Notes: generated by a model from the sequence alone, not told the origin. Shown: positions 835 through 28,701, counted from the first letter of the stretch. The stretch: DNA of 64,000 nucleotides from Dictyostelium discoideum (GCA_000004695.1 CM000151.3:8032001-8096000), one strand, 5' to 3'. A program made the numbers and translations.

Positions 835-1990
835 AATTATTACTAATATATTTATTAATATATTTATTATTTATTTTAATATTTTATAGGAAGGATTTGA
901 TCATGTTACATTTTGGGTTGGTAATGCATTACAAGCAGCAACTTATTACATTGCTAGATTTGGATTTCAAAATTTAGCTTATAGTGGTTTAGAAACTGGT
1001 AATCGTCAATTCGCCACTCATGTTATCCATCAAAACAACATTATTATGGCTTTTACATCACCATTAACTGGTGACAACAAAGATTATGCAGACCACATGA
1101 TGAGACATGGTGATGGTGTCAAAGATATTGCTTTCAACGTTAAAGATGTACAACACATTTATGATGAAGCAGTTAAAGCAGGAGCTCAATCAGTTAAAGA
1201 ACCACATCAAATTAAAGACGAACATGGTATTGTTACATTAGCAACTATCATGAGTCCATATGGTGAAACTACACATACTTTTGTTGATAGATCTCAATAT
1301 AAAGGTGCATTCTTACCAGGTTTCACATACAAGGTCGCTTCAGATCCATTATCAAATATCACCGAACCAGTTGGCCTCAACTTAATAGATCATGTCGTTT
1401 CAAATCATGCAGATAAAATGATGGAACCAGTCGTTCAATGGTACGAAAAGGTTTTACAATTCCACCGTTTCTGGTCAGTTGATGACAAAACCATTCATAC
1501 CGAATATTCATCATTAAGATCAGTCGTAGTTGCTGATAAGTCTGAAAAAGTTAAATTACCAATTAATGAACCAGCCAATGGTATTAGAAAGAGTCAAATT
1601 CAAGAATACGTAGATTTCTACAATGGTGCTGGTGTTCAACATATCGCCTTAAAGACTGATAACATCATTGATGCTATCTCAAAATTAAGATCTCGTGGTG
1701 TCTCTTTCCTCACTGTTCCAAAAACATACTATACATCACTCAGAGAGAAATTACAACACTCTTCATTAGAAATTAAAGAAGATTTGGACACTTTAGAGAA
1801 ATTACACATTTTAATCGATTATGATGACAAAGGTTATCTTTTACAAATCTTTACAAATAATGTTGAAGATAAACCAACTGTTTTCTTTGAAATTATCCAA
1901 AGAAACAACCATGATGGTTTCGGTGCTGGTAACTTTAAATCCCTCTTTGAAGCAATCGAAAGACAACAAGAAACTCGTGGAAACTTATAG
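217..1990 (+). CDS. hpd: 4-hydroxyphenylpyruvate dioxygenase. Proposed structure is join(217..219,890..1990), 367 codons. Exon 1 is ATG alone, followed by a GTAAGT intron.
   Basis: The 890..1990 reading frame encodes EGFDHVTFWVGNALQAA...HRFWSVDD...GFGAGNFKSLFEAIE...RGNL. These are the HPPD signature blocks and the C-terminal end. The frame is open from 890, immediately after an AG that is part of a TAG stop, with no in-frame ATG before 1046. ATGgtaagt at 217 has a typical A-rich start context. The inferred intron, 220..889, is unusually long (670 nt). An alternative first exon is ATGGAAATG at 660 with a non-canonical GTACAT donor. Confidence 0.8.
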
Positions 1991-2221
1991 GTGTGTCTCA
2001 ATTACAAATGTTCTTTATTATTAACTAAATAACATTACAATATATCAAAATAAATAATAAATAAATACTCTATTTAAAAAGTAATTTTTTAATAGTAAAC
2101 AAATTAAAAAAAAAAAAAAAAACAAAAAATTATCTCCTTTAAACATTTTAATTTCTTCTTTATTTATAAACAATGTGTTACAAATTATTACAACCCCAAT
2201 TTCAACATATTATTGAATTAT

Positions 2222-2262
2222 AAGTTGGATTGGACACTTTAGAGAAATTACACATTTTAATA
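2222..2262 (+). pseudogene. Short internal hpd fragment, a copy of hpd about 1785-1815, embedded in the hpd 3' flank
   Basis: The string ggattggacactttagagaaattacacattttaat nearly duplicates the hpd coding sequence gatttggacactttagagaaattacacattttaat. Confidence 0.5.
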
Positions 2263-2297
2263 AGTTATAATATTTTATTAATTATTTATTTGTTTAT

Positions 2298-3225
2298 TTA
2301 TAATAATTTAATGAAATCAAATGTTTGAACATCGTTAGTATTGGTTACAGATTTGAAAGTGATAACGATATTACCAGATTCAAATGACCATGACCAATGA
2401 GCGTTCAAGTTAGCATCATGTTTAATGACGATTGTATGATTTGTAGTTGCTTCTTGAACTGCTTCTAAGATCATTTCATCAGCACAACGTTTGGCAAGAT
2501 TAGCAGCGACCTTTTCGACGATACCAGCAAAGATATGACCAAAACTATTCTTTAAATCATCTGCAACTTTTGGATAAACAGTTTCTAATGATGATTCATC
2601 AATTGACCAATCTGATGATGATTTTAATGCTTTTTTAACTGCTGATAAATTATCTTTCATTTTTTGTTCATTTGTTTTAATATTTAAACGAGTCATTAAA
2701 GTATAAACACCTTGAGTTGGAATAATAGTCTCTAATTTGAATGTGTTAACATCATTTGTGTTACAAATCTTTGGACGGAATAAAACTCTACAATCACCAT
2801 TCTCAAATTGATATTTCCAATAGGATTCCAACTTTTCATCAGCACAAACAAAAACGAATTTCTTATTTGGAACAGCTGCTAAAAATGCTTCTTTAATTAA
2901 TGGATCTGCACCGACTTTTACCATATTCTTTGCAAGATTACCAACTACATCTTTGTAAAAGATACTTCCACAACTATTAGTAACCCATGAATCATTACAT
3001 TTAGTAATAATATCTTCAAAATCAAATTCAATTGAAAATGGTTCACCTAATGATTTTTCGATTGATGCTAAATTAGTTTTTAAAGATTCTTCATTATCTT
3101 TTAATGATTTTCTATAAATATTATAAATTTAATTATTAATTAATATTTATATTAATTATTAAATGGAATATAATTATTATTATTTTTATTATTTATATTT
3201 ACCTTGAGGTTAAGGCGAGAGGCAT
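2298..3225 (-). CDS. 278-aa two-domain paralog, copy 1. Structure is complement(join(2298..3111,3203..3225)).
   Basis: Exon 1 is ATGCCTCTCGCCTTAACCTCAAG followed by gt. A 91-nt intron ends in tatag. Exon 2 encodes KSLKDNEESLKTNLASIEKSLGEPFS... through ...FDFIKLL. The ORF track begins later only because TTA replaces the TTG start used in the other copies. Hand translation gives an uninterrupted frame. Confidence 0.75.
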
Positions 3226-3901
3226 TTTAAAAGTTTTTTTTTTATTAATATTGAAATATTATTTAGTTTAAGGTTTTTGTTTTGAATTATTTGGTAATAA
3301 AAAAAAAAAAAAAAAAATATTCACATTTTTATACTTAAAAAATAGAAAAAAATTAGATTAAAAAAATCCAGAAATATTTAAAAATATTAAATAAAAAATA
3401 TAATTATGAATTTTAAGAATGTAATTGGAATAGTTTTTTTTTTTTTTTAAAAAAATATCTTGTTTTTTTGTTTTAAAAAAAAAAAAAATATTTTAATTTG
3501 TATTTTTTTATTTTTTTTTTTTTTTTTTGGATCGGGTATCTTTAAAAAAAAAAAAAATTGATAATAAGATAATTTTTAAATTTTAATTTATTTTGTTACG
3601 AAATGAATTAAATTCATTATATATATAAATGTGTATTTTTTTTTTTTTTATTATTTATTTTAATTATTTGAATATAATGAGTTTAAAATAAACTATGGTT
3701 TGCCATATCGAAGTTTATTAAAAAATAAAAAAAGACTTAAAAAATTAAATTTGAAAAATAATAAAAAATAATAACAATTCCGTCCATTCAATTAAAAAAA
3801 AAAAAAAGATATGAATAGATATAGATAATTTAAAAAACTAAATTAAAATGTGAAATTTTATTTTTAAATGATTAATTTAAATTATTTTCTTTTATCTAGA
3901 A

Positions 3902-4020
3902 ATTGTCCAAAGAAACAATCATGATGGTTTCGGTGGTTGTAACTATAAGTCTCTCTTTGAGAAAATCGAGGAAAGTTATAATAAATTACAATCATGGTCT
4001 CAATTACAAAAGTTCCTTAT
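3902..4020 (+). pseudogene. 3'-terminal hpd fragment, about the last 100 coding nt plus stop, diverged. It marks a segmental duplication breakpoint.
   Basis: aaattgtccaaagaaacaatcatgatggtttcggtggttgtaactataagtctctctttgag... aligns with hpd 1890-1990 (gaaattatccaaagaaacaaccatgatggtttcggtgctggtaactttaaatccctctttgaagc...). The next 160 nt align with the hpd 3'UTR. Confidence 0.7.
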
Positions 4021-4178
4021 TATTGGTTGAATATCAATATAAATTAATACTCTATTTAAAAATAATTTTTTAATAGTAAACTAACAAAAAAAAAATCAAA
4101 AAACAATCACCTTTTTATACTTTTAATTTCTTCTTTATTTTTTAACAATGTGTTTAATAATATTAGTAGCTTTTTTAT

Positions 4179-5106
4179 TTATAATAATTTAATGAAATCA
4201 AATGTTTGAACATCGTTAGTATTGGTTACAGATTTGAAAGTGATAACGATATTACCAGATTCAAATGACCATGACCAATGAGCATTCAAGTTAGCATCAT
4301 GTTTAATTACGATTGTATGATTTGTAGTTGCTTCTTGAACTGCTTCTAAGATCATTTCATCAGCACAACGTTTGGCGAGATTTGCAGCGACCTTTTCGAC
4401 GATACCAGCAAAGATATGACCAAAACTATTCTTTAAGTCGTCAGCAACTTTTGGATAAACAGTTTCTAATGATGATTCATCAATTGACCAATCTGATGAT
4501 GATTTTAATGCTTTTTTAACTGCTGATAAATTATCTTTCATTTTTTGTTCATTTGTTTTAATATTTAAACGAGTCATTAAAGTATAAACACCTTGAGATG
4601 GAATGATTGTTTCTAATTTGAATGTGTTAACATCATTTGTGTTACAAATCTTTGGACGGAATAAAATTCTACAATCACCATTCTCAAATTGATATTTCCA
4701 ATAGGATTCCAACTTTTCATCAGCACAAACAAAAACGAATTTCTTATTTGGAACAGCTGCTAAAAATGCTTCTTTAACTAATGAATCTGCACCGACTTTT
4801 ACCATATTCTTTGCAAGATTACCAACTACATCTTTATAAAAGATACTTCCACAACTATTAGTAACCCATGAATCGTTACATTTAGTAATAATATCTTCAA
4901 AATCAAATTCAATTGAAAATGGTTCACCCAATGATTTTTCGATTGATGCTAAATTAGTTTTTAAAGATTCTTCATTATCTTTTAATGATTTTCTAAAAAT
5001 AAAATAAAATAAATTATTAATTAAAATTTATATTAATTATTAAATGAAGCATTATTATTATTATTTTTATTATTTATATTTACCTTGAGGTTAAGGCGAG
5101 AGGCAT
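4179..5106 (-). CDS. 278-aa two-domain paralog, copy 2. Structure is complement(join(4179..4992,5084..5106)).
   Basis: Same two-exon structure as copy 1: MPLALTSR, intron, KSLKDNEESLK..., with the track ORF 4179..4931. It carries the inner-copy variants SLVKEAF and IIPSQGVY. Confidence 0.8.
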
Positions 5107-5398
5107 TTTAAAAGTTTTTTTTTTATTAATATTAAAATATTATTTATTAGTTTAAGGTTTTTGTTTTGAATTATTTGATAATAAAAAAAAAAAAAAAAAA
5201 ATTTACATTTTTATACTTATGAAATTAGAAAAAAAATAGATTAAAATCCAGAAATATTTAAAAATATCAAAAAAAACAAATAAAATTATTAATTTTAAGA
5301 ATGTAATTGGAATGGTTTTATTTTTTTTTTACACTTATAAATTAGAAAAAAAATAGATTTGAAAATATCTAGATTTTTTTTTTTTTTTTTTTTTTTGG

Positions 5399-5429
<31 letters not shown>

Positions 5430-5542
5430 AATATCTTAATTTGTTTTATTTTTTTTTTTTTTTTTTTTTTTTTTGGGTTGGTGTGCTTTAAAAAAAACAA
5501 AAAATAACAATGAAAAAAATAAACTCTTTTTGGGTTGAGGTG

Positions 5543-5579
<37 letters not shown>

Positions 5580-5640
5580 TGAACAGATAATTTCAAACAC
5601 TAAATTAAAATATGAAATTTTATTTTTTAAATGTTTAATT

Positions 5641-6672
5641 TCAATTATTTCTTTTTTCTAAATTAATTTTAAATTCGTTTGGTTTAAAAGAGAAACCAAA
5701 TATAGGTTTATCACAAATCTTTGAATTTTCAATTAAAGGTAATAGCTTAAAGTTTAAAACAAGGTTTGAAAGTGAAATGTATAATTCATCTTGAGAGAAA
5801 CCCATACCAATACAATTTTTAACACCAATTCCATATGGAAAATAATTATTTGAATGAGAATCTTGATCAAGGAATCTCTCTGGTTTAAATTGGTCAGGTG
5901 AATCCCAATAGTTTTCATCTCTAAATATTGAATAAAGTGATTGAATGATTTGAGTACCTTTTGGAATTTTCAAAGATCCACCATTAATTTCAAATGATTG
6001 ATTTACTTGACGAGGTACACCAAATGGTACAGGTGGATATAATCTCAAAACTTCTTTTAAAGCTGCATTAAATAATGGTGTTTGATTTCTATTTGAAAGT
6101 TTAATCATCGCTGTTGTCGTTTCCAATGTTGATTTTAATTCATTATAAATTTTATCTTGATAATCAAGATTATTTACCATTGTTAAAATGAACCATTCAG
6201 CAGTACTTGAATTTGTTTCTGTGCCAGCTAAAATTAATTCATTTACCATTGGGATGATTGAACTTTGTTCTTCTTTACCACCAACTTTTCTATATTCAAT
6301 AATCAATGAATCCAAAACATCTCTTGCATTATTTAAATCAATTGATTCAGAATGTTCTAAATAATATTTTGTTAAAATCTTTTTCAAAGAATCTGCTGGA
6401 TGACCAAACATTTTTAAATATAAAAAATAGAATGGTTTTGTAAATATTAAATAATTTACAATTAATGTATCTGCTAAATAATCAAATAATTCTCTAATTG
6501 CTAATAAAACTTTTCCTTGTTCTTCATTTACACCTTCATAAATATTTTCAATACGTCTTGAAAATACATAATCAAAAATAATATTTGAATAAAAGTTCAT
6601 AAAATTTGATCTTGGTGAAAACTTTTAAAAAAAAAAAAAAAAAAAATTAATAAACCAAGTAATGTTTTTAAC

Positions 6673-6727
<55 letters not shown>

Positions 6728-7242
6728 GTACTACTTACAGATTGACCAGATTTTTCAATAAATTTCATATATGTAATTAAATCAATTGTTTCTTTTTCTA
6801 TTGAAGATGAAAGTGATTTAACTTTTCTACCAGTAAATGATTTCATTAAAATATCACGATGAAATTGCCAATAATTTTCATCGGCAGTGACAATACCTCT
6901 AAATCTATTTCCTATTACATTTGTTGATGGTGATTTAACTCTTGTATTTAATGATTCTGGATTCTTTAAATAAATTTCTTTCATTGTATTTGTATCATAA
7001 ATTGCCAATGTCAATTGATCACAAAACCAATATTTGATTATTTTACCATTGTTATCACCATCTTTATATAGTTTACTATCATTTTGAAATACTAAATGTG
7101 TATCATCTTTTAAATGTAATAATGAACCTACTAATGGTAATGCCAAGGGTCCTTTAAATTGTCTATTACTAAAATTTTTATATAAAAAATCAAAAATTAA
7201 ATAAAAAATTATTGAAATTATTAAAATAATTAAAATTGACAT
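5641..7242 (-). CDS. Cytochrome P450 monooxygenase. Structure is complement(join(5641..6621,6739..7242)), about 494 aa.
   Basis: N-terminal membrane anchor MSILIILIISIIFYLIF... Exon 1 ends GQS then GTAAGT. The 117-nt intron ends ttttaaaag. Exon 2 carries the I-helix AGTETNSSTAEW, EVLRLYPPVP (ExxR), FKPERF and the heme loop FPYGIGVKNCIGMGF. Confidence 0.8.
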
Positions 7243-7643
7243 TTTAATATGCTTTGGTATCTTATAAAAAATAAAAAAATAAAAAATAAAAAAAAAAAAC
7301 AAAAAAAAAAAAAAAAAAAAAGGTGAAAGAAAAAAAAAAAAAAATATCTAAACTACTGTAAAAAAAAAAAATAAAAAAAAAATAAAAATAAAATAAATCT
7401 TTTTTTGGTTAAAAAACTAATTTTAAACATTGTTATAAATCTAAAATTTTCCATATGGTAAATAAAAAAAAAAAAATAATAATAATTCAAAAAACAAATA
7501 TAAATTATAAAAGATTATAAAATTCTTAAAAATTAAAAATGTTTTTTTTTTTTTTTTTTTTTATTATTATATTATTATTTAAATAAATAGATATATTACA
7601 AATTTTTATTTTTTATATATTATTAATTAATTAATTAATTAAT

Positions 7644-10189
7644 TTATCTAATTAATTCAATTAAAGAATTTTGTTGAAATTTACCAAAATTTCTAGCATA
7701 ATTATCTAATTCTCTAATCAATAATGGTGAATTAATTCTAATTTTTTTTAAAGTTTCATTTTTTGTATTTAAAATTTTAAATAAATCGAAATCGATTTGA
7801 CTAATAGTATCCATACAAATTCTTTTTAATCTTTTAACCATGAAACCATCGGCAACTTGCATTAGAATACAAATATTATCAAATGAAGTTAAAGTTTCTT
7901 CAAAATTTAAAATATCTTCTTTCTTTAATTTTTGTTGATTTCCATCGATGTTATTTGTTGTTTTTGGAACATTTTTTAATAAAATTTCATTATTTGATAA
8001 AACCATTTGTTCCAAATGATATTCACAAAGATATTTTAAATCTTCAATCATGAATCTATCAGCCAAACAAAGTATATCTATAGCATTATCATCATTGATA
8101 ATCTCTTCATTATTACCATAGATATATTGAAGTAATAGTTTGAAAGTTTCTTTGGAAGAGATATCATTTTCATCTTTACCACTTACAATGAATTCCATTT
8201 GATCCTTCTCTTTGAATGAACATTCAAACATTGTTTTAAAATAAAGATTTCTTTGAGTTAAAATGAATTTATGAGCGTAAATTGAAGAGGTATCAGATTC
8301 TTTGATTTTGAATGAAATATCAGCTTTGGTTAATTCATCAACTGCTTGAATTAATTGTTTACTAAATTCTGAAGGTGGTATTTTCTCGGTGAGTCTTAAT
8401 CTATAGGTATAACGTTTACAAATGGCTGATAATCTTTCAATTCCCATCTTTTCAGCATATTTACCCAATTCAATTCTTAAATGTGGTGCAATCACTAAAT
8501 GATCAGTATATAAATATTGTAAAAAACCAATGAAAATTTGATATTTAACTGAATTGCCTAAATCAATAATTTTAATTTCTTCACCATTTTCATTAAATTC
8601 TTTTTCTTCTTCTTTTTCTTCTTCTTTTTCTTCCTTAGCCACAACAACTTGTTTATTATTTGAATATTGATTAATAAATCTTGATGAAAATAAAATTATT
8701 GAATATAATTTTTGGCAACGTGATTTTATAAATAATGAATGAGAATAAATTTTCTTATCTTGAACTTTAAATATTAAATCTGCATACTTCTTTTCATTAA
8801 TTAATGATTTATAATCATAAGCAAATGAAGTTACATCGGAACATCTTACAACGATTGTATGTTTTTCACCGGCTGTGATCGATGCAATTTCTTCACCAGA
8901 TAGAGAAGTGATTAATTGTGGTACCAATTGAAATCTTTTATTACCTAAACCCAATGCACCAGAACTACCCCAACCCCATTGATAAACTTCATTCTCATCA
9001 GTTACAACGATTGTATGTAAATGACCACATGCTACATTTTTAATTTTTTTAGTTTCTAATGATTTAACCACTATTGGTATTGAATATTTGAAATGATTAT
9101 CTCTTCCACCGAAATCCAAATGTTGAGTTTCTTCTGTGCTACCCAATTGACCATATTCTCCATGACCAAATGCATACAATAGACCTTGGACGCTTCTAAC
9201 CATAGTGAAATTGGAACCACATGCAACTTGAGCTATTCTTTCATTTAATTCTACAAACTGTTGAATTTTCTTTGGATGAAGGTAACTCTTTACATTACCA
9301 TGACCCAATTGACCGAAAACACCAAGTCCCCAACTATAAACTTCACCTTGATCGGTGATGGCACAAATATGTTGACGACCACATACAACACTAACAATGT
9401 TCACATCGATTAATGTTTTCACCAATTGTGGTGTAGAATGAAACCAACGATTACCTAAACCCAATTGACCCTTTTCATTGAATCCCCATGTATATAAACG
9501 ACCAGATTTAGTAACGGCTGCACTAAATGCCCAACCACCACTCACATCTACCACTTCCTCTGGTATATCTTGAATTTGCATTGGAATGGTTTGATTTAAA
9601 TCAATGATTTTACCCAAATGCTTACTCTTTGATTGTGCACTATTGGATGCTTCCTTATCTTCATCATCATCCTTTGGTTTTGTACCACCATTGGCATCGT
9701 ATGCCTTCTTTTCACCCGATAGATATTGTGAAACTGATGCCTCTATAATTCTTTGAGATGATAATCTTGGCATTTCAATTAAACCATTGGTTGATTGTAT
9801 ATCCAATGATGATTGTGACTCGTCTAATCGATGTAGTTGACCCCATTCATAAACTTTACCCATATCAGTCAATGCTAAACTATGAAAATTACCACATGCT
9901 ACCTTTATAATTCTTTCATGTTGTAAACTTTTAATCAATGTTGGTTTTGCTACAAACATTACTTTATCACTACCACCATACCCTTGACCAATACCTAATT
10001 GACCTTCTTTTGATCTACCCCATGAATAAACATCTCCAAATCTTGATACAGCCAATGAATGTGCTTCACCTGATACTGTTTGTATAATTCTTTTACCTAA
10101 TAATCCTTCAATAACTGTTGGTTCTAAACATTCTTTAATTGAATCATGTCCTAACTGCCCATTTTTTGATTGTCCAACACTTAAAACTA

Positions 10190-10225
<36 letters not shown>

Positions 10226-10303
10226 ATGATTAATATAATTTATGTTGAACATTCAGAAAATAGTAAAAATAAAAAAAATAAAAATAAAAAAACTTACCTG
10301 ACA
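7644..10303 (-). CDS. RCC1-repeat plus double BTB-domain protein (RCBTB-like). Structure is complement(join(7644..10186,10297..10303)), 849 aa, with a 7-nt first exon ATGTCAG.
   Basis: Repeated YSWG...GQLG RCC1 blades. Two BTB-like blocks (ADLIFKVQDKKIYSHSLFIKSRC and ISFKIKESDTSSIYAHKFIL). The track M at 10055 is a TTG. The frame stays open upstream to an acceptor tttattag at 10187-88. The upstream exon ATGTCAG then gtaagt lies at 10303-10291. Confidence 0.7.
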
Positions 10304-11017
10304 TTTTATTATTTTTATTTTAATATTATATTTATATTTATGTTTATATGTTTTTTATTTGTTTTGATAATTTTTAATAAATTTTTTTTTTTTTTTTTTT
10401 TTAACTTTATTTTTTTTTTTTGTAAAATTAAATTTAAAAAAATAAAATAAATTAAAAATTAAATTTTAGAATTCTATAGAAAGAATTTTTCCTTTTATAG
10501 TAAGTTTTTGTTTTTTTTATTTTTGTTGTTTTTATAAAAAAAAAAAGGTTTTTGTTTTATTATTATTTTTGTTTTTTTATTTTTATTTTTGTTTTTTTTT
10601 ATTATAAAAGAAAAATGGATTTGAAAATAAATATTTTAAAAAAATTAAAATTAATTTTATGAAAAAAAAAAAATATTGAGTATGAGTGAATTAATAATCA
10701 ATAATGAAAATAAAAAAAAAAAAAAAAACTAATTCGTCTTTCTTTTTAAATTAAAAAAAAAAAAATAAAAACCAATTATTTATTATTTTTTATTTTTATC
10801 TTTTTTTTATTATTTTTTTTATATCAAGTAAATTAAATTATTATACCAAGTAAATAAAATAATACCCCAATAAAATGATAAAGTTCTTCTCAATTTCAAA
10901 GAATGTACCTGTTTTTTATTGATAAAATTTGAAAAATTAAAAAAAAAAAAAATAAAATTAGAAAAAAAATATTTTTTTTAATTTTATTTTCATTTTTTTT
11001 TATTTAATTTTTTTTTT

Positions 11018-11058
<41 letters not shown>

Positions 11059-11661
11059 TAATTTTTCAAAAATTGAGATATTTATTTCGCATATGTTTTA
11101 GTAAAAATAAGCCAAAATTAGTTTTTGGGTTTTGTTGGCATTTGTTTGTTTTTTGAGTATTAATTACATTTTTTAGTTTGAATATTTTTTTATTATTATT
11201 ATTATTTTTATTTGTTATTTATTATTATTGTTATTATTATTATTTTTTTTTTTTTTTGAGTTTTTCATTTTTGTGTTGCAAAACACAAATAAAAAAACAT
11301 GTCACACACCCATTCAGTTTATAATAAAAAAAAAAAAAAAAAAAAAGAAAAAAAAAGAAAATAAAAAAAAGTGGGATTTTCATTTTTTTTTTTTTTTTTT
11401 TTTCAATCATTTATTTTTATTTTTGTCATCAACATATTAATATATAATTATTTTTAAATCTCGTTTTAATAATTCCCCACTTTTTTTGTTTTTTTTTTTT
11501 TTTGCATAATTAATTTTAATTTTTATTTTTTTTTTCTGTACATATAATTTATTAAAAAAAATAAAAATAAAAAATAAAAAATAAAAATATAAAATAAAAA
11601 AAAAAAAAAAAAAAAAAATAAAATAATATAAAATAAAAAAAAAAAAAAAAAAAAAAAAAAA

Positions 11662-13683
11662 ATGAAAGATATTTGGAAATCAGCAAGAAAAGGTGATTTA
11701 GCAAAGATTAAAAAGTATATACCAGGCACAAAATTTAAAGTTGATGAATTAGATAAAGAGAATAGATCAATTCTTCATCATGCGATTGATGGTGACCAAT
11801 TACAAATGGTAAATTATTTATTAGAACAAGGTGCAAATATAAATTTAAAAGATCCTAAATCTGGTGATACTGTATGTATTTAATAATTATAAATAAATAA
11901 AATATATTATTATTATTTTTTTTTTTTTCTAATAGAAAAACATATGTTAATTATTAATTATTATTTTTTATTTATAATTTAGCCAATTTTAATGTCATTA
12001 AAAAAAATTAATGCAATTGATAAACAAGAAGATATTGCAATTTTATTAGTTAATAAAGGTGCAGATTTAGATGTTGAATCAAGAGAGAGAAAGAATGTTG
12101 AAAGATATGTTGATGCATGTCCAAAACGTTTTCAAATAAAGTATAAAGATGCAATTACACAAAAGTTTAAAAATAAATATCCACCAAAGGCAATTGCACC
12201 AGCAAGTCCAGCTACTCAAGTTCTTTTAGCGCAAACTGCAGGTTTACCACCACCTTCACCAAAACCAAATCCACCACCACCACAACAGCAAGAAAACACT
12301 GCTACATCATCAATTATATCAACTGTCGAACCAAGACCATATGTAAATTCAAATGGTGAAACAGTTGTAAGATCAACTAATGAAATGGATTTAATTTTAC
12401 AAGAATCATTGTTAGGTGATGATTTTGATAAAGAACAAGATTTGAATATAATTTGGATGGAAGTTGCATTTAGAGCATCAATCGTTTCCATTAGGTCTGA
12501 GAAAGTTAGATATGACGATATCACCAAAGCCACCGATCAATGTGGTAATATTTTAATACATTTGCTATCAATCATTGGTAATTCAGAGACAACATCGTTC
12601 ATGGAGACTGTAAAGAATCAAGAAGCTGTAAACTCAATTCAAGAACGTGTTAAAAACGTTAAGGAGGGTATCAAACTCCGACTGTTCTCTAGAATTGATC
12701 ATTCTGAATTAATTAGATTAGTTGCAGCTTTAATTGGTTCATTACATTGGATTTACAATTGCTGGTCAGAGGTCCCACAAGACGATATCAATAGATCAAT
12801 TGCCGAATGTGCCTTGTCATGTCGTGTTGCAATGAATTCAGTTACAACTCATACACCATTCCAGTTGGGTGTTTTAACAAATATTGCAAAACTTTTAAAA
12901 AATATTTCAACTAAAGTTTTCATTACTCGTACTCCAGAGGATGCAAAGAAGTTATCAGATTCTTGTTTTGTTATCTCTTCAACTTTTAAATCATTAATGG
13001 TTCTATCGGTAGTGAATGATGTCAAACAAAAATCAGCTGAAAATATCATCTCATTAGGTCGTTCAATCGCCGAACAATTATCAATATTAAAATTACAATC
13101 AACTTCAATCTTACCTTCAAGAGTTGGTCAAAATTTATCATCAAAAGAAGAACGTGAGTTAAATGAATCTGCTTCAAATCAATTACGTTCATCAATTGAT
13201 TATTATATTTCAAATAATAAATCTGATACAACTACTACTACTACAACTACAACTACAACTACAAATAGTGAGAATAATAATATTACAGATTTAATTTCAT
13301 CACCAAAAAGATTACCAAAAGAAGATAAAACATTACCATTATTAGCAAATATTGAAAAATCAATTTCAATGTTAATGGGATTTACAACTGAAGATAGAAA
13401 TATTCAAATGGCAATTCCAGTTCATATGATTGCAAAGGATATTCATGAACTTAGAACTATATTATTAGAATACATTAAAGAACAATCTGATAGTTTATCT
13501 GAAGAATTTAAAGATCAAATTACAAATGCTATCAATTGTTCTGCTCATTTTTCAACTCAACAATTATTCTCTGTATCTGCTTTAATTTGTCATAATAGAA
13601 TTACTGATATCTCACAATTAGGTTATTCTTCTCGTAATATTGCTGCTTGTTGTTGTATTTTAATTGATTCATTCTGTTTTTAA
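11662..13683 (+). CDS. Ankyrin-repeat protein with Pro-rich and poly-Thr segments. Structure is join(11662..11871,11983..13683), 636 aa.
   Basis: ANK motifs: SILHHAIDGDQLQMVNYLLEQGANIN and TPILMSLKKINAIDKQEDIAILLVNKGADLD. Exon 1 ends in phase 0 before GTATGT. The 111-nt intron ends at ag (11981-82). Exon 2 is in frame with the 11992 ORF. Confidence 0.7.
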
Positions 13684-13818
13684 AAAATAAATAAATAATA
13701 AATAAATAATAAATAAATAATAAATAAATAAATAAATAAAATTTGTAAAATAAAATATTAATTTATAATAAAATAAATCAATTTATTTTTTCCCTGAAAG
13801 TAAAATAAAATTAATTAA

Positions 13819-13843
13819 TTAATCTCGAAAATGAATTTTTAAG

Positions 13844-13896
<53 letters not shown>

Positions 13897-15222
13897 GAAA
13901 TTATTAAAATTATTAATATTAAAATTATTCTTTAAATTTTTTGATAGTGATAAAAATGTTAATGAAATTGGTAATTTAATTTTTAATAAATTTTCAATTG
14001 AATAATTATTATTTAATATTAAATGAGTTAATGTTGATGGTAATATATTATCTTGATCAAATGGTTGATTAAAATTTATATTTTCTAAAAGGTTAAATAT
14101 TTTTAAACCATTTGGTAATATGTTTGTATCAATTTTTGAATTGAAATAACCAATGATTGAAAATTCAATTAAACTTGTTAAACATTGTAATAATGAACCA
14201 ATATAATAATTTAAATTTAAATTTAATCTTTTACATGTGAATTCAATCAAGTCAAATGCAATTTCAAATTTTTTAATTGAATTACTTGGTGATAGTATAG
14301 ATGGAGTTAATGGTATTTGTAAATCATAAATTTGTAAATTCTCAACTGTTGATGGTATTGAATTTGGTAGAAATTTCATATCTTTTGAATAACATTCTAA
14401 ATTTATTAATGATGGTGGTAGTGATTCATGAGTAATTTCTAATTTATTAGTATTATTATTTTCATTTTCATTTTCATTAATATAATACATCATAGTTAAT
14501 GATTTTACATTTATTGGTATAACATTTTTAACAAGTTTATTACATTTTAAAATCACTTCTAAATTAATTATTGAATTTGGTAATACTGAAATATCAAAAC
14601 CTTCTCTGTAACTATTTAATACTAAATTTTTAATACCATTTGGTATATCACCAATTTTTAAAATTGAATCACCATTATTCCACTCATTTATAAATGTTAT
14701 TGATTCTAATGTACTTGGAAATTTAATTGTATCTTTTGAAATTTTTGGACATTTTAAAAATGTTATTTCTTTAATATTATTTGGAATTAAATAATCATTA
14801 CCTTTACTATAATCAGTTTCATTAATTACAACATTTTTAACTGACTTAATTGTTGATGGTAATAGGAAAAGAGGAGTTGTGGAAACGAGTATGTTATTAT
14901 TAAATGTTAAACTAATTCCAAATTCAATTATTTCAACTCCAAATGGTATTAAACAACTTGCAATATTTGAAATTGATTGTTCTTTAAATACTATTTTATT
15001 TAATACACCATTTTTATTATTTGGTAAAAAACACTTTTCATTTATTGATTCATTACCTTTATATATTAATGTTCTAATATATTCCTTATTTTCATATTCA
15101 ATTAATGATGTTAAATTTAAAAATGTTACAATTTCATTTTTTTCATATAATAATTTAAACTCTAAAATCATTTTTAACAAATAAACATTTCTCCAAACCT
15201 TAAAAAATAATTTATCTTTCAT
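13819..15222 (-). CDS. FNIP-repeat (Dictyostelium-type LRR-like) protein with a poly-Asn tail, 467 aa
   Basis: Tandem roughly 22-aa repeats with the LP(N/P)SL..L.F...FNQP pattern, for example FNINNFNN and FNQPFDQDNILPSTLTHLILNNNYSIENL. N-terminus is MKDKLFFKVWRNVYLLKMI. Confidence 0.65.
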
Positions 15223-15663
15223 TATTTGATTTTTTTTTTTAAGAATTTCAAAAGGAAGAGTTTGAAAAATTCATTATCGATTTCACAAATAATAAAATTT
15301 CAGTCCAATTTTTACAATTAAAATTTTTTATTTATTATTTTTCAATTTTTAGATTAGAGGTAATAAAAATAAAATAAAATAAAATAAAAAAAAAATTAAA
15401 ATTAAAATTAAAAAAAAAAAACAAGATATTTTCATTGGTTAAAAAAAAAAAATATCTTTTTTATTAAAAAAAAAAAAAAAACATTCCAACTACATTCTTA
15501 AAAATAATAATTTTATTTTTTTAAATATTTCCAATTCTAAATCTATTTTATTTCTATTATTATTTTTTTTATTTTATTTTTTATAAGTATAAAATGTAAA
15601 TTTTTTTTTTTTTTTTCCAATCAATTCAACAAACTTTAAACTAATCAATACAATAAATTAAAA

Positions 15664-16590
15664 ATGCCTCTCGCTTTAACTTCAAGGTAAAAAAAAAAAA
15701 AAAAAAAAAATTATAATTCATTTAGTGGTTAATAATTTAAAATTACTAATTTAAATTAAATTTATTTAATTTATAGAAAATCATTAAAAGATAATGAAGA
15801 ATCTTTAAAAACTAATTTAGCATCAATTGAAAAATCATTGGGTGAACCATTTTCAATTGAATTTGATTTTGAAGATATTATTACTAAATGTAATGATTCA
15901 TGGGTTACTAATAGTTGTGGAAGTATCTTTTATAAAGATGTAGTTGGTAATCTTGCAAAGAATATGGTAAAAGTCGGTGCAGATTCATTAATTAAAGAAG
16001 CATTTTTAGCAGCTGTTCCAAATAAGAAATTTGTTTTTGTTTGTGCTGATGAAAAGTTGGAATCCTATTGGAAATATCAATTTGAGAATGGTGATTGTAG
16101 AATTTTATTCCGTCCAAAGATTTGTAACACTAATGATGTTAACACATTCAAATTAGAGACAATCATTCCATCTCAAGGTGTTTATACTTTAATGACTCGT
16201 TTAAATATTAAAACAAATGAACAAAAAATGAAAGATAATTTATCAGCAGTTAAAAAAGCATTAAAATCATCATCAGATTGGTCAATTGATGAATTATCAT
16301 TAGAAACTGTTTATCCAAAAGTTGCCGACGACTTAAAGAATAGCTTTGGTCATATCTTTGCTGGTATCGTCGAAAAGGTCGCTGCAAATCTCGCCAAACG
16401 TTGTGCTGATGAAATGATCTTAGAAGCAGTTCAAGAAGCAACTACAAATCATACAATCGTTATTAAACATGATGCTAACTTGAACGCTCATTGGTCATGG
16501 TCATTTGAATCTGGTAATATCGTTATCACTTTCAAATCTGTAACCAATACTAACGATGTTCAAACATTTGATTTCATTAAATTATTATAA
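15664..16590 (+). CDS. 278-aa two-domain paralog, copy 3. Structure is join(15664..15686,15777..16590).
   Basis: ATGCCTCTCGCTTTAACTTCAAG followed by gtaaaa. The intron ends ttatag at 15776. Exon 2 is in frame with track ORF 15838..16590. It has a unique DELSLETV variant. Confidence 0.8.
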
Positions 16591-17275
16591 ATAAATAAAA
16601 AAAGCTATTAATATTATTAAACACATTGTTAAGAAATAAAAAAGAAATTAAAAAGTATTAAAAGGTGATTGTTTGTTGATTTTTTATTTGTTTATTTATT
16701 GTTTATCATTTAAAAATTAATTTAGTGTTTTAAATTATCAATTTCTATTCATATCTTTTTTTTTTTTCTCATTTAACTGAATGGATGGAATTGTTATTAT
16801 TTTTCAAATTTATTTTTTAAAGTCTTTTTTTATTTTTAATAAACTTCGATATGTTAAACTATTTTTTATTTTAAACCGTTTAATACAAATAATTATAATA
16901 AATAATTGAAATATATAACAAAATAAATTAAAATTAAAGATTAAATTCTATTGTCAATTTTTTAAAAAGAGTGTATAATAATAAAAAAAATAGTATAGAT
17001 AAAATATTAAGTAGATATGTGATTATCTATTTTTTTTTTTTTTTCATTTGGAAATTTAGACAATTCAAACACTATGTTATTCATACATCAAAAATTAAGA
17101 TATTATTTTAGTTTTATTTTTTATTTTTTTTTATTTTTTATTTTTTTTAACGATACCCCTATAAAAAAAAAAAAAAAATAAAAAAAAAAAAAATAAGATA
17201 TTTTTAAAAAAAAAAAAAAAATAAAAAAAAACAAGTCCAGATATTTTTTTTTAAAAAAAAAAAAAAAAAATCATT

Positions 17276-17345
17276 CCAATTACATTCTTGAAATTAATAA
17301 TTTTATTTTTTATCTAATATTTTTAAATATTTCTGGATTTTTAAT
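17276..17345 (+). promoter_or_regulatory. Conserved upstream promoter block CATTCCAATTACATTCTT(A/G)AAATTAAT ... TAAATATTTCTGGATTTTTAATC, about 125-195 nt before the ATG. Shown here for copy 4. Equivalent blocks lie near 15484, 19006, 3361-3433 and 5240-5318.
   Basis: Non-AT-only islands are conserved in sequence and in spacing from the ATG in all five copies. The surrounding spacer is homopolymer-rich and more divergent. Confidence 0.4.
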
Positions 17346-17468
17346 CTATTTTTTTTCTATTTTTATAAGTATAAAAATGTAAATATTTTTTTTTTTATTA
17401 TTATCAAATAATTCAAAACAAAAACCTTAAACTAATAATATTTAAATATTAATAAAAAAACATTTAAA

Positions 17469-17496
17469 ATGCCTCTCGCCTTAACCTCAAGGTAAG

Positions 17497-17527
<31 letters not shown>

Positions 17528-18399
17528 GCTTCATTTAATAATTAATATAAATTTTAATTAATAATTTAATTTATTTTATTTTTAGAAAATCATTAAAAGA
17601 TAATGAAGAATCTTTAAAAACTAATTTAGCATCAATTGAAAAATCATTGGGTGAACCATTTTCAATTGAATTTGATTTTGAAGATATTATTACTAAATGT
17701 AACGATTCATGGGTTACTAATAGTTGTGGAAGTATCTTTTATAAAGATGTAGTTGGTAATCTTGCAAAGAATATGGTAAAAGTCGGTGCAGATTCATTAA
17801 TTAAAGAAGCATTTTTAGCAGCTGTTCCAAATAAGAAATTCGTTTTTGTTTGTGCTGATGAAAAGTTGGAATCCTATTGGAAATATCAATTTGAGAATGG
17901 TGATTGTAGAATTTTATTCCGTCCAAAGATTTGTAACACAAATGATGTTAACACATTCAAATTAGAAACAATCATTCCATCTCAAGGTGTTTATACTTTA
18001 ATGACTCGTTTAAATATTAAAACAAATGAACAAAAAATGAAAGATAATTTATCAGCAGTTAAAAAAGCATTAAAATCATCATCAGATTGGTCAATTGATG
18101 AATCATCATTAGAAACTGTTTATCCAAAAGTTGCTGACGACTTAAAGAATAGTTTTGGTCATATCTTTGCTGGTATCGTCGAAAAGGTCGCTGCAAATCT
18201 CGCCAAACGTTGTGCTGATGAAATGATCTTAGAAGCAGTTCAAGAAGCAACTACAAATCATACAATCGTAATTAAACATGATGCTAACTTGAATGCTCAT
18301 TGGTCATGGTCATTTGAATCTGGTAATATCGTTATCACTTTCAAATCTGTAACCAATACTAACGATGTTCAAACATTTGATTTCATTAAATTATTATAA
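17469..18399 (+). CDS. 278-aa two-domain paralog, copy 4. Structure is join(17469..17491,17586..18399).
   Basis: Same structure as the other copies. The intron runs 17492..17585 (GTAAGA...tttag). Confidence 0.8.
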
Positions 18400-19192
18400 A
18401 TAAACAAAAAAAGCTATTAATAATTAAAACACATTGTTAAAAAATAAAGAATAAATTAAGTATAAAAAGGTGATTGTTTGTTGATTTTTTTTTATTTGTT
18501 TTTTATTGTTCAAAGTCTTTTTTTTTAATAATAATCGATATGTTAAACTATTTTTTATTTTAAACTCCTTTAAATACAAATAATAAAAATAAATAATTTT
18601 ATCCAAAAAAAAAAAAGAAAAAAAAATGAATTATAATTCATTGTGTAACAAAATAAATTAAAATTAAAAATAATATCTTATTATTATATTTTAAAAAAGA
18701 GTGTATAATAGATAAAAAACTAAAAAAAGTATTGATAAAATATTAAGTAGATTATCTTTTTTTTTTTTTTTTTTTTTTTCTTTTTGAAATTAAGATAATT
18801 CAAACACTATTTATTCATTACATCAAGTATTATAAAGAATTAAAAGATATCATTATATTTTTCTTTTTTTTTTTTTTTAACGATACCCCTATCCAAAAAA
18901 AAATAAAAAATAAAAAAAAAAAAACAAAAAAAAATAAAAAATAAAAAAAAAATAATATAAAAACCAAAATCCAGATATTTTTTATAAAAAAAAATCATTC
19001 CAATTACATTCTTAAAATTAATTATTTTATTTGTTATTTAATATTTTTAAATATTTCTGGATTTTTAATCTATTTTTTTTCTATTTTTATAAGTATAAAA
19101 TGGAAATTTTTTTTTTTTTAATTATCAAATAATTCAAAACAAAACAAACTAATAAATAATATTTTAATAATAATAAAAAAAAAACTCTTAAA

Positions 19193-20121
19193 ATGCCTCT
19201 CGCCTTAACCTCAAGGTAAAAATAAATAATAAAAATAAAAATAATAATAATATTTCATATAAAAATTAATAAAAATTTATTAATAAATAAATTTATTTTA
19301 TTTTTAGAAAATCATTAAAAGATAATGAAGAATCTTTAAAAACTAATTTAGCATCAATCGAAAAATCATTGGGTGAACCATTTTCAATTGAATTTGATTT
19401 TGAAGATATTATTACTAAATGTAACGATTCATGGGTTACTAATAGTTGTGGAAGTATCTTTTACAAAGATGTAGTTGGTAATCTTGCAAAGAATATGGTA
19501 AAAGTCGGTGCAGATCCATTAATTAAAGAAGCATTTTTAGCAGCTGTTCCAAATAAGAAATTTGTTTTTGTTTGTGCTGACGAAAAGTTGGAATCCTATT
19601 GGAAATATCAATTTGAGAATGGTGATTGTAGAATTTTATTCCGTCCAAAGATTTGTAACACAAATGATGTTAACACATTCAAATTAGAAACAATCATTCC
19701 AACTCAAGGTGTTTATACTTTAATGACTCGTTTAAATATTAAAACAAACGAACAAAAAATGAAAGATAATTTATCAGCAGTTAAAAAAGCATTAAAATCA
19801 TCATCAGATTGGTCAATTGATGAATCATCATTAGAAACTGTTTATCCAAAAGTTGCAGATGATTTAAAGAATAGTTTTGGTCATATCTTTGCTGGTATCG
19901 TCGAAAAGGTAGCTGCTAATCTCGCCAAACGTTGTGCTGATGAAATGATCTTAGAAGCAGTTCAAGAAGCAACTACAAATCATACAATCGTCATTAAACA
20001 TGATGCTAACTTGAACGCTCATTGGTCATGGTCATTTGAATCTGGTAATATCGTTATCACTTTCAAATCTGTAACCAATACTAACGATGTTCAAACATTT
20101 GATTTCATTAAATTATTATAA
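19193..20121 (+). CDS. 278-aa two-domain paralog, copy 5. Structure is join(19193..19215,19308..20121).
   Basis: Same structure as the other copies. It carries the outer-copy variants ADPLIKEAF and IIPTQGVY, which it shares with copy 1. Confidence 0.8.
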
Positions 20122-20228
20122 ATAAACAAATAAACAATAAAACATTTTAAAAAACGAGTAATAATAAAATATGTTCAAATCTTTCGAAAGATTTTAATTT
20201 TTTTGACATTATTTATTTGGTTTGATTC

Positions 20229-20659: not shown

Positions 20660-28701
<8,042 letters not shown>

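What the first reader, a model, noticed from the sequence alone, without database searches (positions are those of the whole stretch)
2100..20130. Palindromic five-copy amplification of a novel two-domain gene, bracketing a 10-kb four-gene core
Five intact copies of a 278-aa gene, about 97-99 percent identical, are arranged as two minus-strand copies (2.3-5.1 kb) and three plus-strand copies (15.7-20.1 kb). This is an inverted duplication of a tandem array. Mirror symmetry is visible at the substitution level. The outermost copies (1 and 5) share ADPLIKEAF and IIPTQGVY. The inner copies (2, 3 and 4) share ADSL(I/V)KEAF and IIPSQGVY. This implies either duplication of an array that had already diverged or inter-arm gene conversion. 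The arms enclose the P450, RCC1-BTB, ankyrin and FNIP genes. Large near-perfect palindromes are recombinogenic and prone to collapse in assemblies.
Basis: seen in the sequence. Interest (0 to 1): 0.8.

Follow-up and report, generated by a model that had tools for sequence, protein, structure and literature searches.

The report
Inverted gene arrays flanking an invertible core
Five intact copies of an uncharacterised amoeba gene sit as two opposed arrays around four other genes on Dictyostelium discoideum chromosome 2; the layout is real, the copies keep exchanging sequence, and the four-gene core is flipped in other wild strains, which is ordinary repeat-driven genome dynamics, not a new kind of system.

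Summary
The window is D. discoideum AX4 chromosome 2. It holds five intact 278-aa genes, 2 on the minus and 3 on the plus strand, all transcribed away from a 10.6-kb core of P450, RCC1-BTB, ankyrin and FNIP genes. They are already annotated as hypothetical proteins (DDB_G0277415, 417, 421, 423, 425).

The layout is not an assembly artefact. An independent long-read contig matches window 768-26596 in one alignment at 99.7%.

The same architecture occurs in a cryptic sister lineage, and in part in D. citrinum and D. dimigraforme. Copy numbers differ: 2+3, 3+1, 4+2.

In two wild D. discoideum assemblies the core is inverted relative to the HPPD and ATG2 flanks. The breakpoints lie inside the arrays, which is the signature of recombination between inverted repeats.

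Exon 2 groups by genome, whereas the 5' flanks group by position. Synonymous divergence is lower within a genome (0.07-0.10) than between genomes (0.14-0.39). Both results indicate gene conversion.

The protein is an internal two-repeat member of an uncharacterised protist family with no Pfam match and no convincing structural neighbour. Its function is unknown.

The parts
1046..1990 (+). Last exon of the 4-hydroxyphenylpyruvate dioxygenase (HPPD) gene. It is the unique left flank, convergent with c1.
   Evidence: Pfam Glyoxalase and HPPD N-terminal hits. The gene is called as a 369-aa Glyoxalase protein in the other assemblies.
2298..3225 (-). Copy c1 (DDB_G0277417), the outermost copy of the left arm. 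It retains ancestral P78 and T140.
3794..3898 (+). Duplicated piece of the P450 3' flank inside the c2-c1 spacer. It is one half of a tandem-duplication junction.
   Evidence: 85% identical to 5554-5660.
3899..4165 (+). Duplicated HPPD 3' end and its downstream flank. It is the other half of the junction and includes a pseudo-coding fragment at 3893-3970.
   Evidence: 72% identical to 1889-2190. tblastn gives [26 protein letters not shown], 73% identical to the HPPD C-terminus. The fragment is also present in the AX2-like contig.
4179..5106 (-). Copy c2 (DDB_G0277415), the copy of the left arm next to the core.
   Evidence: Its coding sequence differs from c4 by 2 nt.
4171..5081 (.). Near-identical tract shared with 17497-18407 (c4). 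It is a probable recent inter-arm conversion tract running from the start of the intron to 8 nt past the stop codon.
   Evidence: 911 nt, 99% complementary. The flanks fall to 81-89%.
5107..5640 (-). Spacer and promoter between the P450 stop codon and the c2 ATG. This is the core-side edge of the left arm.
   Evidence: Orthologous to the P450-adjacent spacer of strain FIR (90.8% against 62-67% in cross controls).
5641..15222 (.). The four-gene core: P450 (-), RCC1-BTB (-), ankyrin (+) and FNIP (-).
   Evidence: Pfam hits. Called genes in six other assemblies. AX4 and FIR are 96.4% identical over the core.
15223..15663 (+). Spacer and promoter between the FNIP ATG and the c3 ATG (head-to-head). 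This is the core-side edge of the right arm.
   Evidence: Orthologous to the FNIP-adjacent spacers of FIR and FIW (88-90%). It is a distinct, old type of 5' region.
15664..16590 (+). Copy c3 (DDB_G0277425), the copy of the right arm next to the core. It is the most divergent copy.
17469..18399 (+). Copy c4 (DDB_G0277423), the middle copy of the right arm.
19193..20121 (+). Copy c5 (DDB_G0277421), the outermost copy of the right arm. It retains ancestral P78 and T140.
20660..28024 (-). ATG2 (autophagy-related protein 2) gene. It is the unique right flank, convergent with c5.
   Evidence: Pfam ATG2_CAD, E = 2.4e-136. The gene is called as a 2599-2640-aa product in other assemblies.

Best explanation
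This is a local gene-family cluster on D. discoideum chromosome 2 that has grown into two opposed tandem arrays around a 10.6-kb four-gene core. It behaves as inverted low-copy repeats do elsewhere.

**Shown.**
1. The repeat unit arose by tandem duplication when the gene lay between HPPD and P450. The c2-c1 spacer holds a junction made of the P450 3' flank joined to the HPPD 3' end, and remnants of both pieces occur in the spacers of both arms.
2. The two-arm layout is real and conserved. It is seen in full in AX4, the AX2-like assembly, FIR and FIY, and in part in FIW, D. citrinum and D. dimigraforme. Copy number varies.
3. Exon 2 is homogenised within each genome and across the two arms, whereas the 5' flanks keep positional orthology between strains.
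4. The core is inverted relative to the HPPD and ATG2 flanks in two wild D. discoideum assemblies, and the breakpoints lie inside the arrays.

**Inferred.**
- The homogenisation comes from gene conversion and unequal crossing-over between copies.
- The inversion arose by crossing-over between oppositely oriented copies, probably the ones next to the core. Such events also move inner copies from one arm to the other.
- The two outermost copies take part least, so they keep older alleles.
- The AX4 orientation is ancestral, because FIY and D. citrinum share it.
- All 25 copies examined are intact and dN/dS is about 0.05, so the protein is functional and copy number probably matters for dosage.

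The biochemical role of the protein is unknown. My best guess is a soluble cytosolic protein built from two alpha/beta repeats, because it has no signal peptide or transmembrane segment visible by eye and no catalytic motif was recognised.
For: **Gene structure and identity.** All five copies are intact with the same exon-intron structure. They match AX4 gene models exactly.

**Independent assembly.** Window 768-26596 aligns in one HSP at 99.70% to a 4.9-Mb contig, JBTAPE010000033. That assembly was made from Nanopore and Illumina reads (PMC12745789).

**Gene order in other genomes.**
- FIR: ATG2, c x4, P450..FNIP, c x2, HPPD.
- FIW: P450..FNIP, c x4, HPPD.
- FIY: HPPD, c x3, P450..FNIP, c, ATG2.
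- D. citrinum: FNIP, c, ..., ATG2.
- D. dimigraforme: copies flank the core in inverted orientation.

**Edge spacers.** They are orthologous according to their unique neighbour: 82-95% identity against 59-67% in cross controls.

**Trees.**
- Exon 2 groups by genome. Bootstrap support is 99% for c2+c4, 94% for c1+c5, 89% for FIR3+FIR5 (a cross-arm pair) and 100% for all D. dimigraforme copies. A positional clade has 0%.
- The 5' region groups by position. Support is 100% for the P450-adjacent copies of AX4 and FIR, and 0% for genome clades.

**Substitution rates.** Synonymous divergence is 0.07-0.10 within a genome, 0.14 between AX4 and FIR, and 0.37-0.39 against D. citrinum and D. dimigraforme. 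dN/dS is about 0.05.

**Conversion tract.** c2 and c4 share a 911-nt tract at 99% identity, with divergent flanks.

**Duplication junction.**

**Ancestral alleles in c1 and c5.**
Against: - Only one inversion event is needed to explain the sampled genomes. FIR and FIW are close relatives (98.4% over the core), so recurrent flipping is not shown.
- Bootstrap support for the whole-genome clades in exon 2 is moderate: AX4 61%, FIR 45%, FIW 79%.
- The HPPD coding fragment occurs only in the AX4/AX2 lineage among the genomes sampled, yet it is 28% diverged from its parent. This requires it to have been lost elsewhere.
- The outer flanks in D. dimigraforme are neither HPPD nor ATG2. Its orientation cannot be scored, and an independent origin of its arms is not strictly excluded.
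- The ATG2-side arm of FIW is missing because of a contig break.
- No expression or functional data for the gene were found.
Confidence: 0.85

Rival explanations
1. Assembly artefact. The inverted 2+3 layout was created by mis-assembly of a single tandem array in the Sanger-era AX4 reference.
For: Repeat arrays are hard to assemble. One long-read assembly (FIW) breaks a contig 237 nt from the P450 stop codon, exactly where an array should start.
Against: - An independent Nanopore and Illumina contig of 4.9 Mb is collinear with window 768-26596 at 99.70%, with only 13 mismatches.
- The two-arm layout recurs inside multi-megabase contigs of FIR, FIY and D. dimigraforme.
- Each arm has its own unique edge sequences and its own variant sites.
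Confidence: 0.02
2. One-off inverted duplication of an array that had already diverged (c1, c2 copied to c5, c4), with no later exchange. The coding similarity would be maintained by purifying selection alone.
For: - c1 pairs with c5 and c2 pairs with c4 in the exon-2 tree, with 94% and 99% support.
- dN/dS is about 0.05, which shows strong constraint.
Against: - Six of the eight sites that unite c1 and c5 are ancestral states.
- The spacers c2>c1 and c4>c5 are no more alike (81% identity over 52-58% of their length) than non-mirror pairs.
- Synonymous divergence within a genome is half or less of that between genomes, although the two-arm layout is shared across species.
- The positional signal is present in the 5' flanks but absent from exon 2.
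- c2 and c4 have dS of 0.006, against 0.06-0.10 for the other pairs.
Confidence: 0.06
3. The copies are cargo of a mobile element that inserted repeatedly on both sides of the core.
For: - The family also occurs at other loci: DDB_G0271254, DDB_G0281617, and a four-copy cluster in FIW contig 74.
- Unit lengths are fairly uniform at 1.7-1.9 kb.
Against: - The units are bounded by fragments of the neighbouring host genes (HPPD 3' end, P450 3' flank), as expected for segmental duplication.
- The units contain no ORF of 100 aa or more besides the family gene, and I saw no terminal repeats.
- The protein has no Pfam match to any transposition function.
Confidence: 0.02
4. A regulated, recurrent flip-flop switch. 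The arms exist to invert the core frequently, possibly during vegetative growth, and so change expression of the core or of the array genes.
For: - Both orientations exist among strains that are reported to form macrocysts with each other.
- Copies with the P450-type 5' region sit on the ATG2 side in AX4, which suggests more than one exchange between arms.
Against: - The orientation is the same in AX4 and in the AX2-like assembly.
- A single event on the FIR/FIW branch explains the distribution.
- No recombinase gene or specific recombination site was seen.
- An inversion with breakpoints inside the arrays leaves every core gene and each core-adjacent copy with its own core-side promoter spacer. 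No obvious regulatory consequence follows.
Confidence: 0.05

Closest known systems
Inversion polymorphisms mediated by inverted low-copy repeats. The example, cited from my own knowledge, is the human Xq28 FLNA-EMD segment flanked by inverted repeats of about 11 kb.
   Same: - A unique multi-gene segment is bracketed by inverted repeats.
- Both orientations are found in natural genomes.
- The breakpoints lie inside the repeats.
- The repeats are homogenised by exchange between them.
   Different: - Here each repeat is a tandem array of 1-4 gene units with variable copy number, not a single block.
- High identity is confined to about 0.9 kb per unit.
- Recurrence has not been demonstrated.
Mammalian sex-chromosome palindromes with arm-to-arm gene conversion (reviewed in PMC6790999, listed; the rest is from my own knowledge).
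   Same: - Inverted arms carry multi-copy genes around a unique spacer.
- The arms evolve in concert.
- The structure varies through ectopic recombination.
   Different: - Those palindromes have arms of tens to hundreds of kb at more than 99.9% identity.
- Here the arms are 3-4.5 kb, 88-95% identical overall, and unequal (2 against 3 copies).
Tandem gene arrays under concerted evolution, in which the edge copies are the most divergent. This is the classical unequal crossing-over and gene conversion model, cited from my own knowledge.
   Same: - Copies are head-to-tail.
- Copy number varies between strains.
- Similarity within a genome exceeds similarity between genomes.
- The outermost copies retain older alleles.
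   Different: Homogenisation also crosses between two oppositely oriented arrays that are 10.6 kb apart.
The tgrB/C locus dynamics described in the same set of Dictyostelium assemblies (PMC12745789).
   Same: Local duplication, recombination and inversion of a gene family occur in D. discoideum and its sister species.
   Different: - The tgr locus shows large unalignable swaps and diversifying evolution.
- This locus is compact, syntenic and homogenising, with strong purifying selection.
- Term searches of that paper's main text turned up no mention of this locus. I did not read the paper in full.

Membership tests
Invertible segment flanked by inverted low-copy repeats (non-allelic homologous recombination) | Homologous sequences in inverted orientation at both ends of the segment | tested here: met
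   Six inverted pairs of 850-946 nt at 94-99% identity. There are 2 copies on the minus strand and 3 on the plus strand.
Invertible segment flanked by inverted low-copy repeats (non-allelic homologous recombination) | Both orientations observed in independent genomes | tested here: met
   - In AX4, the AX2-like assembly and FIY, HPPD lies on the P450 side.
- In D. citrinum the FNIP side faces ATG2, which is the same state.
- In FIR and FIW, HPPD lies on the FNIP side.

Invertible segment flanked by inverted low-copy repeats (non-allelic homologous recombination) | Breakpoints map inside the repeats | tested here: met
   All four edge spacers stay orthologous to their unique neighbour: 82-95% identity against 59-67% in controls. 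The AX4 spacer c3>c4 best matches the FIR spacer 4>3 at 87%, which hints at a crossover in the copies next to the core.
Invertible segment flanked by inverted low-copy repeats (non-allelic homologous recombination) | Recurrent inversion (more than one independent event) | tested here: inconclusive
   One event on the FIR/FIW branch is enough. The mix of unit types on the ATG2 side of AX4 hints at earlier exchanges.
Palindrome with arm-to-arm gene conversion (sex-chromosome type) | Arms nearly identical (above 99%) along their whole length | tested here: not met
   Only exon 2 reaches 98-100%. The intron is 68-94% identical, the promoter 61-90% and the 3' flank 44-82%. The arms have 2 and 3 units.
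Palindrome with arm-to-arm gene conversion (sex-chromosome type) | Evidence of sequence exchange between the arms | tested here: met
   - c2 and c4 differ by 2 nt, and they share a 911-nt tract at 99% identity.
- The cross-arm pairs have 89-99% bootstrap support.
- Derived alleles are shared by the inner copies of both arms.
Tandem array under concerted evolution | Paralogues within a genome are more alike than positional orthologues between genomes | tested here: met
   Synonymous divergence is 0.07-0.10 within genomes and 0.14-0.39 between them. The exon-2 tree groups by genome.
Tandem array under concerted evolution | Copy-number variation between genomes | tested here: met
   Copy numbers, given as HPPD-side arm + ATG2-side arm:
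- AX4: 2+3
- FIY: 3+1
- FIR: 2+4
- FIW: 4 + unknown

Any curated protein domain family (Pfam-A) | Score above the family's gathering threshold | tested here: not met
   The best hit is iSTAND at 17 bits, against a cut-off of 24. None of 34 family members shares a Pfam family with another.
[not shown]
   - Foldseek finds nothing at E <= 0.001.
- No cysteine is among the nearly invariant columns of the family alignment.
Transposable element carrying a passenger gene | Transposase or terminal repeats, with unit ends independent of the host genes | tested here: not met
   The unit ends contain fragments of the HPPD and P450 flanks. The units contain no ORF of 100 aa or more besides the family gene.

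The most novel reading that the evidence does not exclude
Probability: 0.2. Interest if true: 0.55.

Novelty: new member of a known kind. Interest (0 to 1): 0.35.

Why it matters
- **Assembly quality.** The result shows that a suspicious-looking inverted gene amplification in the AX4 reference is genuine.
- **A small natural example.** Tandem duplication, exchange between arms and repeat-mediated inversion are all visible within 18 kb. The organism is a haploid model in which CRISPR and long-read genotyping are routine.
- **Structural polymorphism.** The inversion distinguishes lab strains from wild strains that the source paper reports as forming macrocysts with AX2. It is therefore probably a structural polymorphism within the species and could locally suppress recombination.
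- **An uncharacterised protein family.** The gene belongs to a structurally confident but unnamed family, with 132 clusters at 50% identity and members in Amoebozoa and Heterolobosea.
- **What it does not show.** None of this reveals a new kind of biological system.

Tried and rejected
- **Function by sequence.** Pfam on one copy and on 34 family members gave nothing above threshold. A sequence search of PDB returned only calmodulin, at E = 0.25.
- **Literature.** No paper's main text mentions the five gene IDs or their UniProt accessions. One proteomics table lists the paralogue DDB_G0290465 with an uninformative label.
- **Scoring the D. dimigraforme orientation.** Its outer flanks have no ATG2 or HPPD homology and no other match in the 64-kb window apart from FNIP-like genes. 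I dropped an initial reading of it as "B orientation".
- **One-to-one orthology of the internal spacers across strains.** Most pairs are 72-83% identical and ambiguous. Only AX4 c3>c4 against FIR 4>3 stands out, at 87%.
- **A possible promoter motif.** AAAGCAC..CAACCCAAAAA occurs twice upstream of c2 but not upstream of the other copies.
- **Failed look-up.** The exact-sequence look-up for c5 found no record. A look-up with c3 covered the same region instead.


Full report
**1. What is there**

The window is Dictyostelium discoideum AX4 chromosome 2. The five predicted proteins match DDB_G0277417 (c1), DDB_G0277415 (c2), DDB_G0277425 (c3), DDB_G0277423 (c4) and DDB_G0277421 (c5) exactly. All five are annotated as hypothetical proteins.

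The copies lie at these coordinates:
- c1: 3225-2298 (-)
- c2: 5106-4179 (-)
- c3: 15664-16590 (+)
- c4: 17469-18399 (+)
- c5: 19193-20121 (+)

Each copy consists of a 23-nt exon 1 (MPLALTSR), a 90-94-nt intron and an 814-nt exon 2. Each encodes 278 aa with no defect. The first ORF list showed a shorter ORF for c1 only because a TTG upstream of the listed start is TTA in that copy.

The coding sequences differ at 27 sites, of which 22 are synonymous. Pairwise differences range from 2 (c2/c4) to 20 (c1/c3).

Both arms are transcribed away from the core. The core holds P450, RCC1-BTB, ankyrin and FNIP genes. The unique flanks are HPPD on the left and ATG2 on the right. No further copy exists in the 64-kb window.

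Outside exon 2 the identity between copies drops to 68-94% in the intron, 61-90% in the 200 nt upstream and 44-82% in the 100 nt downstream.

**2. The structure is not an artefact**

Holland et al. (PNAS 2025, PMC12745789) produced Nanopore and Illumina assemblies of AX2-214, of wild D. discoideum strains and of sister species.

A 4.9-Mb contig from one of these, JBTAPE010000033, encodes proteins identical to those of AX4. I take it to be AX2-214, which is an inference. It carries RICTOR, HPPD, c, c, P450, RCC1, Ank, FNIP, c, c, c, ATG2 in that order. It aligns to window 768-26596 in a single alignment at 99.70%, with 13 mismatches.

**3. How the arrays arose**

The c2-c1 spacer contains a copy of the P450 3' flank (3794-3898, 85% identical to 5554-5660). 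Directly next to it lies a copy of the HPPD 3' end and its downstream flank (3899-4165, 72% identical to 1889-2190). The second piece includes a recognisable HPPD C-terminal pseudo-peptide.

This is the junction expected from a tandem duplication of a unit reaching from inside HPPD to the end of P450. It implies that the gene once sat alone between those two genes.

Spacers of the right arm carry the same two pieces in the same order, with the HPPD coding part deleted. Both arms therefore descend from that duplicated unit rather than from independent duplications.

The HPPD coding fragment is found only in AX4 and the AX2-like contig among the genomes sampled. Yet it is 28% diverged from its parent, so it is old and must have been lost from the other arrays.

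**4. The layout in other genomes**

In what follows, c stands for one copy of the gene.

| Genome | Gene order |
|---|---|
| FIY (JBTAPH..40, "D. cf. discoideum") | HPPD, c x3, P450..FNIP, c, ATG2 |
| D. citrinum | FNIP, c, a 630-aa gene, ATG2 |
| D. dimigraforme | copies on both sides of the core in the same inverted arrangement |
| FIR (JBTAPF..17, 4.9-Mb contig, probably CR116C) | ATG2, c x4, P450, RCC1, Ank, FNIP, c x2, HPPD |
| FIW (JBTAPG..54, probably OT3A) | P450..FNIP, c x4, HPPD, RICTOR |

- In D. citrinum, promoter-like sequence just past the P450 gene suggests a copy on that side too.
- In D. dimigraforme the outer flanks are not HPPD or ATG2, so its orientation cannot be scored.
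- The FIW contig starts 237 nt from the P450 stop codon.

In FIR and FIW the core is thus inverted relative to the flanks.

All four edge spacers remain orthologous to their unique neighbours. They are 82-95% identical, against 59-67% in cross controls. The breakpoints therefore lie inside the arrays, as expected for crossing-over between inverted copies.

Divergence between AX4 and FIR is about 4% in the core and also in the HPPD-RICTOR flank. The region is not unusually diverged. FIR and FIW are close to each other (98.4%), so one event suffices.

FIY and D. citrinum share the AX4 orientation, so that orientation is probably ancestral.

The source paper reports that AX2 forms macrocysts with CR116C and OT3A. 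If my assignment of assemblies to strains is right, the inversion is a polymorphism within the species.

**5. Concerted evolution**

An exon-2 tree groups copies by genome, not by arm or position. Bootstrap support is:

| Group in the exon-2 tree | Support |
|---|---|
| all D. dimigraforme copies | 100% |
| all FIW copies | 79% |
| all AX4 copies | 61% |
| all FIR copies | 45% |
| c2+c4 (cross-arm pair) | 99% |
| c1+c5 (cross-arm pair) | 94% |
| FIR3+FIR5 (cross-arm pair) | 89% |
| FNIP-adjacent copies of AX4, FIR and FIW (positional clade) | 0% |

A tree of the 5' part (250 nt upstream, exon 1 and the intron) does the opposite:

| Group in the 5' tree | Support |
|---|---|
| P450-adjacent copies of AX4 and FIR | 100% |
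| FNIP-adjacent copies of FIR and FIW | 100% |
| split between the non-FNIP D. discoideum copies and all the rest | 98% |
| genome clades (tested for AX4 and FIR) | 0% |

Synonymous divergence is 0.07-0.10 within a genome. It is 0.14 between AX4 and FIR and 0.37-0.39 against D. citrinum and D. dimigraforme.

c2 and c4 share a 911-nt tract at 99% identity. It runs from the start of the intron to 8 nt past the stop codon, and its flanks are 81-89% identical. It looks like a recent conversion tract between the arms.

dN/dS is about 0.05, and all 25 copies examined in seven assemblies are intact. The gene is therefore under purifying selection.

**6. The "mirror symmetry"**

c1 and c5 do share P78 and T140 and agree with each other at eight sites where they differ from c2, c3 and c4. 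At six of those eight sites their state is the one found in D. citrinum, D. dimigraforme and a second family locus.

The two outermost copies therefore retain ancestral alleles. The inner copies of both arms share derived alleles, which also dominate in FIR and FIW.

This fits exchange that involves mainly the inner copies. Crossovers between inverted copies would carry inner copies to the other arm, and the end copies of an array take part least in unequal exchange. It does not fit a mirror-image duplication of a pre-diverged array. The spacers argue against that too: c2>c1 and c4>c5 are no more alike than other pairs.

c4 and c5 carry the P450-type 5' region although they sit on the ATG2 side. 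This is consistent either with earlier transfers between arms or with an inverted duplication of a multi-copy array.

**7. The protein**

The two halves are 37% identical (E = 1e-20).

An exhaustive HMMER search finds 132 clusters at 50% identity, with one to about five repeats per protein. Named members come from dictyostelids, Physarum and Percolomonas, and none has a functional name.

No Pfam family matches.

AlphaFold2 with a 34-sequence alignment gives a mean pLDDT of 95.5. Each repeat is a helical bundle followed by a three-stranded sheet.

The sequence shows no obvious signal peptide or transmembrane segment. This is from my inspection, not from a tool.

**8. Verdict**

The finding is real and has been dissected, but it is of a familiar kind. 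It is an already annotated gene cluster that behaves as inverted low-copy repeats do elsewhere. The added value lies in four results:
- the duplication junction;
- the demonstration of conversion between the arms;
- the reinterpretation of the c1/c5 similarity as retained ancestral alleles;
- an inversion of the core between lineages, which the term searches of the source paper's main text did not turn up.

Noticed in passing
window 3893-3970 (+): A pseudogene fragment of the HPPD C-terminus ([26 protein letters not shown]) sits between c1 and c2. It is present in AX4 and in the AX2-like contig but not in FIR, FIW or FIY, although it is 28% diverged from the parent gene.
   Followed up: yes
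L004 5966-13793 (FIW contig JBTAPG010000074, at the contig end): A second cluster of the same family lies next to Gaa1 and a phosphodiesterase gene. It has one minus-strand copy head-to-head with three plus-strand copies, and the contig ends inside the array. These copies form a separate clade, about 88% identical to c4. The locus may be another small inverted array.
   Followed up: partly
DIM (L007 10001-13181 = merged 25452-28632): In D. dimigraforme the P450-side copy is followed by a second copy in the opposite orientation (tail-to-tail), which forms a local palindrome. The outer flanks of the whole locus are not HPPD or ATG2 but unrelated genes, including extra FNIP-like genes.
   Followed up: partly
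window 5470-5489 and 5527-5546 (-): The motif AAAGCAC(N5)CCCAAAAA, embedded between long T and A runs, occurs twice in the P450-c2 spacer, with looser variants near 5400 and 3540. Four matches were found in the window against 0.34 expected by chance. It is not present upstream of the other copies.
   Followed up: partly
window 2190-2297: c1 has about 100 nt of unique sequence directly after its stop codon. c2, c3 and c4 lack it. Their shared 3' flank resumes in c1 only at 2190.
   Followed up: partly
L006 8741-11009 (FIY): The FNIP-adjacent copy of FIY has a 172-nt intron, against 68-103 nt in all other copies. A 126-aa ORF is called just upstream of it.
   Followed up: no
L009 11066-12958 (D. 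citrinum): A 630-aa gene with no Pfam hit on record lies between the family copy and ATG2 in D. citrinum. It is absent from that position in the D. discoideum genomes.
   Followed up: no
L001, start of contig JBTAPG010000054: The long-read assembly of FIW breaks 237 nt downstream of the P450 stop codon, exactly where the ATG2-side array should begin. The arrays evidently still defeat some long-read assemblies.
   Followed up: partly
[not shown]
   Followed up: partly
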